Shown here in pieces: positions 11,901-14,900 of a stretch of 64,000 nucleotides of DNA. Each line of letters begins with the position of its first letter. The stretch's first letter is position 1. The stretch is from the NCBI RefSeq assembly GCF_056746865.1, contig NZ_CM163382.1; one strand, given 5' to 3'. A program made the position numbers.

Positions 11901-14900
11901 GCGTAAATAACGGGTGTGATAGAGCTGCAGAAAACGAGAGCGAAACTCCGGCACATCAATTTTGATGGGGCACTGGGTCGAACAAGCTTTACAGGCCAGA
12001 CAGCCCGACATCGCCTCTTTGACTTCGTGGGAGAAGTCATATTCGCCTTTATTCGCATGCCAGCTATTGCGCGTGCGGGCAATTAACGTCCGCAAACTGA
12101 CGCCGGATTCAGGCAGTTCTTGTTCCAGTTTGAGTGGGTCAACGCCGCGATCCGCCAACAAGCGCAGCCATTCACGCACCAGCGTTGCGCGCCCTTTCGG
12201 TGAATGAATCCGGTTCTGGGTGATCTTCATCGACGGACACATCGGACTACGGACATCAAAGTTGAAGCATAAACCGTTGCCGTTACACTCCATCGCACCG
12301 CGCCACTGCTGGCGTACCGCAATGGGGATCTGCCGATCGAATGTACCGCGCTTCACCGCGTCCACTTTCATCATCGGCGCATCGAGACCTTCTGGCGGGC
12401 AAATCTTCCCAGGGTTGAGTCGGTTATGCGGGTCAAATGCCGCTTTCACTTTGCGCAGTTCTGCAAAAAGTTCCTCACCGAAAAACGCCGGGCTGTATTC
12501 AGCGCGAAAACCTTTGCCGTGCTCGCCCCACAACAAGCCACCGTATTTCGCAGTCAGCGCCACCACGTCATCAGAGATTTGCTTCATCAAAATCTCTTGT
12601 TGTGGATCGCACATATCCAGTGCCGGACGGACGTGCAAGACACCTGCGTCGACGTGACCGAACATACCGTAGCTTAAGCCGTGGCTGTCGAGCAGCGCGC
12701 GAAATTCAGCAATATAATCTGCCAGATGTTCCGGCGGTACGCAGGTATCCTCAGCAAACGGAATTGGCTTGGCTGCTCCTTTGGCATTACCGAGCAGGCC
12801 GACAGCTTTTTTGCGCATCGCATAAATACGCTCAACACCTGCCAGCTCACTGCATACCTGCCAGCCGATCACACCTGCTTGCTGACTGGCGATAAGTTCA
12901 TCCAGCCGCGCACAGAGTGCATTTACTCGCTCATCAATCAGCGTCTCATCATCACCAGCAAATTCCACAATGTTCAGCCCGAGCATTTCTTTGTCAGGCA
13001 CATCGGTAATCAACTCGCTGACGGAATGCCAGACAATATCTTCCCGCGCCAGATTCAGCACTTTTGAGTCCACCGTCTCTACCGAAAGCGCCCGCGCCTC
13101 AACCATAAACGGCGCGTTACGCAGCGCGGAGTCAAAAGAGTCATATTTGACGTTCACCAGACGGCGCACTTTAGGCAAGGGCGTAATATCCAGCCGCGCT
13201 TCGGTAATAAAGGCCAGCGTCCCTTCTGAACCCGTCAGAATGCGCGTCAGGTCGAACTCGGTCATCTCATCGTTAAAGACATGACGCAGATCGTAACCGG
13301 TAAGAAAGCGGTTAAGTTTGGGGAAGTTGTCGATGATTAACTGGCGTTGCTGACGGCAACGTTGATAAACCGTGTTATAAATTCGCCCGATTGCGGTATT
13401 GGTTTTACCCAGCGTTTCTGCCAGTTCGACGGGTAAAGATTGCGTATCGAGAATATCGCCCCCCAACAACACCGCGCGTACGCCAAGTACGTGATCTGAC
13501 GTTTTGCCATAGACCAGCGATCCCTGACCGGATGCATCGGTATTGATCATCCCGCCGAGCGTTGCCCGGTTGCTGGTCGAAAGCTCCGGCGCAAAAAAGT
13601 AGCCGAACGGTTTCAGGTACTGATTGAGTTGGTCTTTTATCACCCCGGCCTCAACGCGCACCCAGCCCTCTTCAGGGTTAATTTCGATGATGCGGTTCAT
13701 ATGGCGGGACATATCAACAATAATCCCCTGGTTGAGCGCCTGACCGTTAGTGCCGGTGCCGCCGCCGCGGGGGGTAAAGATCAGCGATGAATAGCGTTCC
13801 TGCGCGGCAAGACGGGCGATCAGCGCCACATCTGCGGTTGAACGCGGAAATACCACCGCATCGGGGAGAAGTTGGTAAATACTGTTGTCGGTCGACATTG
13901 TCAGACGATCGGCATAACTTGTCGCCGTATCGCCGGTAAACCCCTGTTGCTCCAGCTCTTGCAAAAAATTAAGCACCAGTTGAACGACGCCGGGTGCCTG
14001 GGAAATCTGTGGAATCATTATATTGACCCTTTCCTGCGGTCTGTGATGTAGGTCGATACACTATTCTTTCAGGCGGCTGCAATAGCGCACTGAAAGGTGA
14101 TGTTTATTTACTCTATGGATTTCGAGTTGCAGGAAGGCGGCAAGCGAGTGAACTCCAGGAGCTTACAATAGTAAGTGACTGGGGTGAACGAACGTAGCCG
14201 CAGCACATGCAACTTGAAATACGACGAGTAAATCGTTTGCGTGTTGCCTGAGTTGTTGTACCACATTTTTTTCTAACACGCCCATCAGAATTAAGGGCAG
14301 AATCGGCCTGTTAAAAACCGCTGAAATTGCTCATCATTATGCAGGTGAGTTTCGCGTGTTCACGTCGCGTCGACGATTTGACGCACAAAAAAGGTGAAAA
14401 GTAGTTATGGTAAATGTTCGTCAGCCCAGGGATGTCGCACAAATTCTGCTTTCGGTGCTCTTTTTAGCCATCATGATTGTGGCATGTCTGTGGATTGTAC
14501 AACCCTTTATTCTCGGCTTTGCATGGGCTGGTACGGTGGTTATCGCCACCTGGCCGGTATTGTTACGTTTGCAAAAGATCATGTTTGGTCGCCGGTCTCT
14601 CGCCGTTCTGGTGATGACGCTGTTATTAGTGATGGTGTTTATCATCCCTATTGCCTTGCTGGTTAACAGTATCGTCGACGGCAGCGGCCCGCTAATTAAA
14701 GCCATTTCCAGCGGTGACATGACGTTACCCGATCTGGCGTGGCTTAATACCATTCCGGTGATTGGCGCGAAGCTGTATGCAGGCTGGCACAACTTGCTGG
14801 ATATGGGGGGGACGGCGATCATGGCAAAAGTCCGTCCTTATATTGGCACCACCACCACCTGGTTCGTTGGGCAGGCGGCGCATATCGGGCGCTTTATGGT

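What the first reader, a model, noticed from the sequence alone, without database searches (positions are those of the whole stretch)
14110..14245. ERIC (IRU) repetitive element in the ydiJ-ydiK intergenic region
The ydiJ-ydiK spacer contains both canonical ERIC primer-binding sequences in the expected inverted arrangement, so it is an ERIC copy. ERIC elements are transcribed into structured RNA and can affect stability of flanking mRNAs; this copy lies between the ydiJ start and the ydiK start (divergent genes) and could influence either promoter.
Basis: partly seen in the sequence, partly recalled or inferred. Interest (0 to 1): 0.25.

Follow-up and report, generated by a model that had tools for sequence, protein, structure and literature searches.

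The report
ERIC repeat inside the ydiJ leader
This is a genuine but ordinary copy of the well-known ERIC repeat of enteric bacteria; it lies inside the untranslated leader of the ydiJ messenger RNA, right against a purine-repressor (PurR) binding site, and about a fifth of E. coli strains lack it.

Summary
Window 14107-14232 is a full-length ERIC/IRU element of 126 nt, with the consensus orientation on the minus strand. It is 81-87% identical to ERIC consensus sequences over its whole length and scores 122 bits against an ERIC profile. It forms a strong hairpin, and E. coli genomes carry a median of 12 ERIC-like places.

The window is E. coli, and the ydiJ(-)/ydiK(+) spacer is the same 388 bp as in K-12.

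New context:
- Published start-site data put the main ydiJ start at window 14247, so the ERIC is nt +16 to +141 of a 229-nt ydiJ leader. It is not a spacer between two promoters.
- The ERIC's last 6 nt form the left edge of the best PurR-operator match in the 64-kb window (AGTAAATCGTTTGCGT, 14227-14242). This lies inside a published PurR ChIP-chip region.
- The ERIC and an adjoining 61-bp single-copy hairpin segment are present in 4,255 of 5,426 complete E. coli genomes. They are absent from the rest (e.g. ST131), whose 213-bp spacer matches the ancestral Enterobacteriaceae state.
- Other genera acquired ERICs independently within a few bp of the same site.

Any regulatory effect is unproven, and the predicted ribosome-binding-site accessibility is unchanged. 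The element is a known kind, of modest interest.

The parts
14107..14232 (-). Full-length ERIC/IRU element (126 nt, with a 1-nt deletion relative to the 127-nt consensus). It corresponds to nt +16 to +141 of the ydiJ leader.
   Evidence: End-to-end alignment to published consensus sequences and to five E. coli paralogues. nhmmer score 122 bits. Other genomic copies align to exactly this span. Hairpin z-scores are -5.4 and -8.0. 10 of 29 pairs covary across copies.
14169..14190 (+). ERIC2 primer-like sequence, 20/22 matches.
14148..14167 (-). ERIC1R primer-like sequence, 19/22 matches with a 1-nt gap near the primer's 3' end.
14046..14106 (.). A 61-bp single-copy segment that accompanies the ERIC in every genome carrying it. 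It forms its own hairpin (about 14067-14096) in the ydiJ leader. Its origin is unresolved; it may be a degenerate short ERIC-like remnant. A 7-bp direct repeat GTGATGT occurs at 14043-14049 and 14097-14103.
   Evidence: Absent together with the ERIC from ST131. Found in 4,255 of 5,426 genomes, once each, which is the same number as carry the ERIC copy. Similar to the short element of L047 (z = 4.1, 0 of 500 shuffles), but not detected by the ERIC profile. Leader fold.
14227..14242 (+). PurR-operator-like 16-mer AGTAAATCGTTTGCGT. Positions 1-6 are the ERIC terminus and positions 7-16 are conserved flank. It covers +6 to +21 of the ydiJ transcript.
   Evidence: Scores 18.4 bits with a weight matrix built from the 28 sites of Cho et al. 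2011 Table 1. That is rank 1 of 127,970 positions in the window. It lies inside the ChIP-chip PurR region assigned to ydiJ/ydiK. The right half is conserved in about 70 of 79 Enterobacteriaceae loci.
14255..14263 (-). Candidate extended -10 element (TGGTACAAC) of the ydiJ promoter.
   Evidence: It sits 8 nt upstream of the mapped start and is part of the 51-nt sequence listed by Kim et al. 2012. It is conserved across genera as TGnTA(C/A)AA(C/A). The assignment as a promoter element is inference.
14247..14247 (-). Main ydiJ transcription start (49 reads, 5' UTR 229 nt), mapped in K-12.
   Evidence: Kim et al. 2012 Table S1, position 1766938(-) in the older MG1655 coordinates. The K-12 spacer is collinear with the window.
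14098..14098 (-). Second ydiJ 5' end (25 reads, 80 nt from the ATG), 9 nt downstream of the ERIC. It is either a weak ERIC-borne promoter or a processing product.
   Evidence: Kim et al. 2012 Table S1, position 1766789(-).
14345..14345 (+). Proximal ydiK 5' end (2 reads, 62-nt leader). The ERIC lies upstream of it and is not in this transcript.
   Evidence: Kim et al. 2012 Table S1, position 1767036(+).
10962..14018 (-). ydiJ (D-2-hydroxyglutarate dehydrogenase), the gene whose leader contains the ERIC.
14407..15519 (+). ydiK (AI-2E family transporter), the divergent neighbour.

Best explanation
[quoted passage not shown] Together with an adjoining 61-bp segment (net +175 bp), it was inserted long ago into the 5' leader of ydiJ. 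The insertion point is the ydiJ-proximal edge of a PurR operator that lies just downstream of the ydiJ transcription start.

In carrier strains the ydiJ mRNA therefore begins with about 15 nt of original leader. Next comes the 126-nt ERIC folded as one long independent hairpin, then a second small hairpin, then the unchanged ribosome-binding site.

I think the element is most likely a tolerated, nearly neutral passenger. It lengthens the leader from about 54 to 229 nt without changing predicted access to the ribosome-binding site. If it has any effect, that effect would be on ydiJ rather than ydiK, and would act through mRNA processing or stability or through the altered left half of the PurR operator.

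Shown here: the element's identity, limits and hairpin; the ancestral empty site; and the polymorphism. Taken from the literature: its position in the ydiJ transcript (K-12 start-site data) and PurR occupancy of the region. Inferred: near-neutrality and any regulatory consequence.
For: - Identity and limits.
- Hairpin and covariation.
- Transcription: the K-12 ydiJ start at window 14247 gives a 229-nt UTR, and the K-12 and window spacers are collinear.
- Independent domain: the full-leader fold keeps the ERIC hairpin separate. The unpaired probabilities of the Shine-Dalgarno and AUG region are nearly identical in the filled and empty leaders.
- The empty site is ancestral. ST131 and Escherichia sp. 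MOD1-EC7003 have a 213-bp spacer whose junction GAGAGATTAATCG is homologous to Citrobacter GAGAGTTAATCG. Most Enterobacteriaceae have spacers of 196-213 bp.
- Both alleles are common: 4,255 filled and about 1,170 empty among 5,426 genomes. This argues against a strong fitness effect.
- The filled allele is orthologous in E. albertii and E. whittamii, with 3-5% divergence, so the insertion is old.
- The same leader segment has accepted unrelated insertions in many genera. The distance from the box to the ydiJ ATG ranges from 23 to 230 nt, while the distance from the box to the ydiK ATG stays at 145-165 nt in nearly all of them. This fits a permissive site.
Against: - No expression data compare the two alleles.
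- The insertion raises the PurR matrix score from 12.3 to 18.4 bits, which could be functional.
- A second 5' end maps 9 nt downstream of the ERIC with half as many reads as the main start. This could mean that the element causes processing or carries a promoter.
- In Yersinia, ERICs have orientation-dependent effects on the stability of co-transcribed mRNA (De Gregorio 2005, as summarised in PMC2229807 and PMC10969869).
- ERIC hairpin pairs show compensatory changes. In particular, the terminal A-U pair is U-A in all four Escherichia ydiJ copies, which hints at constraint on the structure.
- The start-site data come from K-12, not from the strain of the window.
Confidence: 0.72

Rival explanations
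1. The ERIC terminus has been co-opted as the left half of the PurR operator. By replacing GATTAA with AGTAAA at operator positions 1-6, the insertion strengthens PurR binding at +6 to +21 of ydiJ. Carrier strains would therefore repress ydiJ more tightly when purines are plentiful. There is a metabolic logic: YdiJ removes the D-2-hydroxyglutarate made by SerA, on the serine/glycine/one-carbon route that feeds purine synthesis.
For: - The matrix score is 18.4 bits in the filled allele and 12.3 in the empty one. The gain comes from positions 1, 2 and 4.
- The filled 16-mer differs from the glyA operator at only 2 of 16 positions.
- PurR occupies this intergenic region in K-12, which carries the filled allele, when adenine is present.
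- The penultimate base of this ERIC copy is A instead of the consensus T. The consensus end would score 15.2 bits instead of 18.4, and the partner base at the other terminus has changed in a compensating way.
- YdiJ function is described in PMC9504171.
Against: - A weight-matrix score is not an affinity.
- The ChIP signal is modest (log2 ratio 1.08, against 2.08 at many sites), and the authors listed no motif for this peak.
- Many ERIC-free species already have boxes of 15-20 bits, so a good operator does not need the ERIC.
- In other genera an ERIC insertion at this site lowers the score or leaves it unchanged. L053 scores 12.0 against 14.7-17.7 in relatives, and L047 scores 10.6.
- There are no PurR-binding or expression data for the empty allele.
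Confidence: 0.2
2. The ERIC creates a new 5' end for ydiJ mRNA at 14098. It would do so either through a weak promoter built from its ydiJ-proximal arm or by directing endonucleolytic cleavage just 3' of the hairpin. The result is an 80-nt leader that lacks the PurR box and the hairpin. This would partly uncouple ydiJ from PurR or change the mRNA half-life.
For: - A 5' end with 25 reads (against 49 for the main start) was found in a terminator-exonuclease-treated library 9 nt downstream of the ERIC.
- A weak -10-like TAAATA/TAAACA lies 6-7 nt upstream of it (read directly from the sequence).
- ERICs in Yersinia unmask an RNase E site.
Against: - There is no credible -35 or extended -10 element, and the consensus promoter scan found nothing here.
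- Exonuclease enrichment is imperfect, so a stable processed end can survive it.
- The evidence is a single data set from one growth condition.
Confidence: 0.15
3. The ERIC modulates the ydiK promoter, for example by changing spacing, DNA structure or upstream transcription.
For: - The element lies 113 nt upstream of the proximal ydiK 5' end.
- A 3-read plus-strand 5' end maps inside the ERIC loop at 14177.
- ydiK has been described as PurR-regulated on the basis of the same ChIP peak.
Against: - The distance from the PurR box to the ydiK ATG is constant (145-165 nt) in most of the box-bearing genera. In E. coli it is 164 nt in both the filled and the empty allele, so the insertion leaves the ydiK side untouched.
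- All ydiK 5' ends have only 2-4 reads.
- The box sits at +6 to +21 of ydiJ but about 100 nt upstream of the ydiK start.
Confidence: 0.07
4. The element is translated. A 52-codon open reading frame spans it on the minus strand (14266-14108).
For: The ORF is listed. ERIC-borne reading frames have been discussed in the literature (PMC2759123).
Against: Its ATG (14266) lies upstream of the mapped ydiJ start (14247), so the main transcript lacks it. No ribosome-binding site was looked for. The ORF list is purely mechanical, and the translation has no evident features.
Confidence: 0.02

Closest known systems
ERIC / IRU / RU-1 elements of Enterobacteriaceae (Sharples & Lloyd 1990; Hulton et al. 1991; Wilson & Sharp 2006)
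   Same: Length (126 against 127 nt). Full-length sequence similarity of 81-87%. A conserved central inverted repeat carrying the ERIC1R and ERIC2 sites. A long imperfect hairpin and a 7-bp terminal inverted repeat. Extragenic but transcribed location. Multiple copies per genome. Presence/absence polymorphism with an intact ancestral empty site.
   Different: The termini read TTTAC...GTAAA instead of TATAC...GTATA, so the usual terminal TA and the TA target duplication cannot be recognised. There is one 1-nt deletion in the ERIC1R site. The element came with, or later acquired, an adjacent 61-bp non-repeated segment.
ERIC elements co-transcribed with Yersinia genes (De Gregorio et al. 2005, known to me only through the reviews PMC2229807, PMC3184786 and PMC10969869)
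   Same: The element is embedded in an mRNA and is expected to fold, and a 5' end maps next to it.
   Different: The Yersinia cases concern ERICs downstream of genes or between cistrons, where an RNase E site destabilises the upstream message. Here the element is in a 5' leader, upstream of the only gene in question. No stability data exist for this copy.
PurR operators of the E. coli pur regulon (16-bp palindrome ACGNAAACGTTTGCNT; Cho et al. 2011)
   Same: The 16-mer at 14227-14242 has the central CG and a perfect right half GTTTGCGT. It scores within the range of the 28 listed sites and lies in a ChIP-defined PurR region.
   Different: Its left half is partly made of mobile-element sequence. 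It lies at +6 to +21, not between the -35 and -10 elements. No motif was reported for this peak, and no site-level binding or regulation has been shown.
Rfam families V_AS5 (RF02818), Ysr49 (RF02766) and STnc70 (RF02069)
   Same: Weak matches across the ERIC (42.7, 29.5 and 18.6 bits). This suggests that these 'sRNA' families were built on ERIC-like transcripts.
   Different: All three are far below their gathering scores (96, 95 and 40), so this copy is not a member of any of them.

Membership tests
ERIC / IRU | About 127 bp and alignable to the ERIC consensus over its whole length | tested here: met
   126 nt, covering consensus positions 1-127 with one gap. 81% identity to the Wilson & Sharp consensus, 86% to SeRU-1 and 87% to the E. 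coli paralogue majority. nhmmer 122 bits, E = 4e-39.
ERIC / IRU | Conserved central inverted repeat (the ERIC1R and ERIC2 primer sites, back to back) | tested here: met
   ERIC2 20/22; ERIC1R 19/22 plus one gap. None expected by chance.
ERIC / IRU | Imperfect palindrome that folds into a long stem-loop | tested here: met
   Minimum free energy -60.3 kcal/mol (z = -8.0) and -43.3 kcal/mol (z = -5.4) on the two strands. 29 consensus pairs, 10 with compensatory changes, across 15 copies.
ERIC / IRU | Terminal inverted repeats with 5'-TA-3' termini and a TA target-site duplication (PMC2229807 Table 1) | tested here: inconclusive
   A 7-bp terminal inverted repeat TTTACTC/GAGTAAA is present. The termini are TT...AA instead of TA...TA, and no clean TA duplication flanks this copy. 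The independent insertion in L053 does show TA on both sides.
ERIC / IRU | Dispersed multi-copy family within the genome | tested here: met
   Median 12 (range 2-18) similar places per E. coli genome. Paralogues were retrieved at yafP-pepD, ilvN-uhpA, ybhJ-ybhI and yeiS-preT.
ERIC / IRU | Extragenic but within a transcribed region | tested here: met
   It lies between ydiJ and ydiK and downstream of the mapped ydiJ start (K-12 data from the literature).
ERIC / IRU | Behaves as an insertion (an empty orthologous site exists) | tested here: met
   213-bp empty spacers occur in ST131 and in Escherichia sp. MOD1-EC7003. They are collinear with Citrobacter and other genera.
PurR operator | 16-bp motif ACGNAAACGTTTGCNT with a central CG | tested here: met
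   AGTAAATCGTTTGCGT scores 18.4 bits (the 28 training sites score 11.8-24.9, median 20.0). It is the best of 127,970 positions in the window.
PurR operator | PurR occupancy in vivo | not testable with these tools
   Literature only. The ChIP-chip region 1,766,545-1,767,225 (older MG1655 coordinates, equal to window 13854-14534) is assigned to ydiJ/ydiK, has a log2 ratio of 1.08 with adenine, and has no motif listed. The resolution is regional, not site-level.
PurR operator | Target gene responds to purR deletion or to purines | not tested
   The supplementary expression tables of Cho et al. are not held.

The most novel reading that the evidence does not exclude
The edge of the PurR operator in the ydiJ leader is a recurrent landing site for ERIC and other hairpin-forming insertions across Enterobacteriaceae. 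In Escherichia, the ERIC terminus has been recruited as the left half of the operator, raising the weight-matrix score by 6 bits. The natural 78%/22% filled/empty polymorphism would then be a ready-made allelic series. It would show a MITE re-tuning both transcription-factor binding and leader structure of a metabolic gene, ydiJ, that links serine and one-carbon flux to purine status.
Probability: 0.18. Interest if true: 0.5.

Novelty: already known. Interest (0 to 1): 0.28.

Why it matters
As an ERIC copy it adds nothing new. ERICs have been catalogued in E. coli K-12 for decades, and this spacer is identical in length and nearly identical in sequence in K-12.

The context is of modest use in four ways:
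- It gives a concrete 16-bp candidate for a PurR ChIP peak that was published without a motif. It also points to ydiJ rather than ydiK as the gene the box is positioned to control.
- It documents a common natural presence/absence polymorphism of a leader-embedded MITE that could be used to measure what ERICs do in E. coli.
- It shows that the same few base pairs were hit independently by ERICs in several genera.
- It shows that this copy's ERIC1R and ERIC2 sites are imperfect near the primers' 3' ends, which is relevant to how ERIC-PCR bands arise.

Tried and rejected
- **ERIC1R search.** The ERIC1R complement with up to 3 mismatches found nothing. The cause is a 1-nt deletion, not absence of the site.
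- **Promoter scan.** The consensus sigma-70 scan of the spacer found no promoter. Published start sites show that one exists, with an extended -10 and no good -35, so the scan's criteria were too strict.
- **Masking of the ribosome-binding site.** I considered that an anti-Shine-Dalgarno-like stretch in the ERIC (14129-14143, complementary to 14023-14037, pair I2) masks the ydiJ ribosome-binding site. I rejected this because the full-leader fold keeps the ERIC self-paired, and the unpaired probabilities of the Shine-Dalgarno region are the same with and without the insertion.
- **The 61-bp segment as a repeat or short ERIC.** It is single-copy in E. coli and is not detected by the ERIC profile. 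Gapped alignments to full ERICs are not better than shuffles. It does resemble the short internally deleted ERIC-like element next to the ERIC of L047 (0 of 500 shuffles). This remains unresolved.
- **The empty allele as a secondary deletion.** Rejected, because the empty allele keeps 9 bp that are homologous to other genera and absent from the filled allele.
- **Rfam.** No family reaches its gathering score over the element. There are only sub-threshold hits to ERIC-like sRNA families.
- **Papers not held.** Wilson & Sharp 2006, De Gregorio 2005, Sharples & Lloyd 1990 and Thomason 2015 could not be read. I therefore could not confirm that this locus is in the published ERIC catalogue, nor apply the Yersinia orientation rule.
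- **Supplements not held.** The supplements of Conway 2014 and Cho 2011 are not held.
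Full report
**1. What is in the sequence.**
The window is Escherichia coli. A 1-kb stretch around the finding is 100% identical to strain 118UI and matches 5,424 of 5,426 complete E. coli genomes. ydiJ occupies 10962-14018 on the minus strand (1018 aa). ydiK occupies 14407-15519 on the plus strand (370 aa). They diverge from a 388-bp spacer, the same length as in K-12 MG1655. RprA and RydB flank the region as expected.

**2.
The spacer holds a 26-nt inverted repeat (14106-14131 / 14208-14233). The segment folds far better than shuffled sequence on both strands: -60.3 kcal/mol (z = -8.0) and -43.3 kcal/mol (z = -5.4).

I aligned it against the 127-nt E. coli ERIC consensus of Wilson & Sharp and the Salmonella SeRU-1 sequence, both quoted in Delihas 2007 (PMC2759123), and against five E. 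coli paralogues retrieved here. The element runs from 14232 to 14107 on the minus strand. It covers the consensus end to end with one 1-nt deletion. Identity is 81%, 86% and 87% respectively. A profile built from the copies in hand scores it 122 bits.

The ERIC2 primer sequence matches 20/22 at 14169-14190. The ERIC1R sequence matches 19/22 with a gap, which is why a mismatch-only search missed it.

Genome-wide, E. coli genomes hold a median of 12 similar places. In genomes that lack this locus copy, the best matches are paralogues that align to exactly query positions 7-134. This independently fixes the element's limits.

Across 15 copies, 10 of 29 hairpin pairs show compensatory changes. In the four Escherichia ydiJ copies the terminal pair has switched from A-U to U-A, so the termini read TTTAC...GTAAA instead of TATAC...GTATA.

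**3. It is an insertion, it brought company, and it is polymorphic.**
ST131 strain 4224 has a 213-bp spacer. Window 14046-14231 (186 bp) is replaced there by 11 bp.

The extra 61 bp on the ydiJ side of the ERIC (14046-14106) is single-copy. It is found in 4,255 of 5,426 genomes, exactly the number that carry this ERIC copy at 90% identity or more. The two parts therefore always travel together. About 1,170 genomes (22%) are empty.

A scan of one genome per species with YdiK gave 80 loci. Most Enterobacteriaceae have spacers of 196-213 bp without an ERIC. The empty E. coli junction (GTGATGAGAGATTAATCG) is homologous to that of Citrobacter (for example GTGTTGTGAGAGTTAATCG). The empty allele is therefore ancestral, not a secondary deletion.

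The filled allele, with the same 388-bp architecture, is also present in E. albertii, E. whittamii and Escherichia sp. E1V33, with 3-5% divergence within the ERIC. Escherichia sp. MOD1-EC7003 is empty, although its ydiK is closer to E. coli. The insertion is therefore old and its distribution is phylogenetically patchy. I cannot distinguish long-lived polymorphism from recombination.

The origin of the 61-bp segment is unresolved. It forms its own hairpin and is bracketed by a 7-bp repeat. It resembles a short internally deleted ERIC-like element that sits beside the ERIC of locus L047 (0 of 500 shuffles). An ERIC profile does not detect it.

**4. Where it sits relative to transcription.**
Kim et al. 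2012 mapped 5'-triphosphate-enriched RNA ends in K-12 (PMC3415461 Table S1).
- The main ydiJ start has 49 reads and a 229-nt 5' UTR. This is window position 14247. It is preceded by TGTGGTACAAC, an extended -10 that is conserved across genera.
- The ERIC is therefore nt +16 to +141 of the ydiJ leader, transcribed in the consensus orientation.
- A second 5' end (25 reads, 80-nt leader) maps at 14098, 9 nt past the ERIC.
- The ydiK ends are very weak (2-4 reads). The proximal one is at 14345, so the ERIC is outside that transcript.

Folding the whole leader keeps the ERIC as an independent hairpin, followed by the small hairpin of the 61-bp segment. The predicted unpaired probabilities of the Shine-Dalgarno and AUG region are the same as in the 54-nt empty leader.

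**5.
The motif (A)ATCGTTTGCGT directly abuts the ERIC and is conserved in about 70 of 79 loci.

I built a weight matrix from the 28 PurR sites in Table 1 of Cho et al. 2011 (PMC3159470). With it, the best match on either strand of the whole 64-kb window is AGTAAATCGTTTGCGT at 14227-14242. It scores 18.4 bits (the training sites score 11.8-24.9) and differs from the glyA operator at two positions.

Cho et al. report a PurR ChIP-chip region assigned to ydiJ/ydiK. After the coordinate shift between MG1655 versions it equals window 13854-14534. They list no motif for it.

The box lies at +6 to +21 of the ydiJ transcript and about 100 nt upstream of the weak ydiK start. This points to ydiJ as the likelier target, although the literature has read the peak as ydiK regulation.

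The first six bases of the box are the terminal bases of the ERIC. The empty allele has GATTAATCGTTTGCGT at this place, scoring 12.3 bits. A consensus ERIC end would give 15.2 bits. This could mean co-option. However, ERIC-free species often have boxes of 15-20 bits, and ERIC insertions at this place in other genera do not improve the score. I therefore rate co-option as a minority possibility.

**6. A recurrent insertion site.**
ERICs also occur in this spacer in three other loci:
- Enterobacter genomosp. O (L053): opposite orientation, with clean TA flanks.
- Enterobacter sp. JUb54 (L047): a full ERIC plus a short ERIC-like element.
- Isolate 18061 (L054): two ERICs.

In each of these three loci one ERIC, the ydiJ-proximal one in L054, ends 0-3 nt from the conserved motif. 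These copies are only 70-76% identical to the E. coli copy, which is 87% identical to E. coli paralogues. Their closest relatives are empty. They are therefore independent insertions.

More generally, the box-to-ydiK distance is 145-165 nt in most box-bearing loci. The box-to-ydiJ distance ranges from 23 to 230 nt because of unrelated hairpin-forming insertions in Salmonella, Kluyvera, Citrobacter, Raoultella and others. The short stretch between the operator and the ribosome-binding site is evidently a permissive or preferred target.

**7. Verdict.**
The finding is real and correctly named, but it is an ordinary member of a long-known repeat family. The element is part of the ydiJ leader rather than a spacer between promoters, and nothing points to ydiK.

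My best explanation is a tolerated, old MITE insertion with at most modest effects on ydiJ. Three things support this. Both alleles are common. The ribosome-binding-site context is unchanged. The site accepts many different insertions.

The more interesting readings remain untested. They are an ERIC terminus co-opted into the PurR operator, or an ERIC-dependent second 5' end. Both can be tested directly using the natural alleles.

Functional statements about ERICs in Yersinia come from reviews. I could not read the primary paper or the Wilson & Sharp catalogue.

Noticed in passing
window 14227-14242, and loci L009-L078 at the equivalent position: A PurR-operator-like 16-mer is conserved across Enterobacteriaceae at +6 to +21 of ydiJ. 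Cho et al. 2011 list a PurR ChIP peak for ydiJ/ydiK without any motif. The box position suggests that ydiJ, not ydiK, is the regulated gene.
   Followed up: partly
loci L015, L021, L031, L034, L039, L070, L075 (between the ydiJ ATG and the PurR-like box): The ydiJ leader varies from 23 to 230 nt between genera. The cause is unrelated hairpin-forming insertions that are not ERIC by BLAST. One 72-bp stretch that starts at the ydiJ ATG and runs into the insertion is shared between Raoultella (L034) and L047.
   Followed up: partly
window about 14363-14390, and aligned positions in other genera: The ydiK leader contains a small hairpin (GCGTC-GACGATTT-GACGC) just upstream of the ribosome-binding site. 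Other genera keep a hairpin at this position with different sequences (e.g. GCCAGC...GCTGGT in Enterobacter, followed by a T-run). It may be a leader regulatory element.
   Followed up: no
L047 2637-2712 and L005 about 2545-2605: Short, internally deleted ERIC derivatives of about 56-76 bp that keep both termini. One lies beside the full ERIC in the ydiJ leader of Enterobacter sp. JUb54. One lies near uhpA in E. coli VG38-53E1.
   Followed up: partly
window 14103-14271 (Rfam E-value search): The ERIC gives sub-threshold matches to the Rfam 'sRNA' families V_AS5 (Vibrio), Ysr49 (Yersinia) and STnc70. This suggests that those families are built on ERIC-like repeats.
   Followed up: no
L054 (record CACSKA010000003.1): The record is titled Chryseobacterium sp. 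18061, but it encodes typical Enterobacteriaceae ydiJ/ydiK (YdiK 83% identical to E. coli) and two ERICs. This is probably a mislabelled or contaminated assembly.
   Followed up: no
window 28802-28817 (+): The second-best PurR weight-matrix hit in the window is TGGTTAACGATGGCGT, 14.2 bits. Its gene context was not examined.
   Followed up: no
L074 4426-4540 and L087 4122-4237: Buttiauxella izardii and Yersinia aldovae each carry an ERIC just downstream of ydiK. Both ends of ydiK therefore attract ERICs in some lineages.
   Followed up: no
window 14177 (+): A 3-read plus-strand 5' end in K-12 maps to the central loop of the ERIC (Kim et al. 2012). It may be noise or weak antisense initiation within the element.
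   Followed up: no
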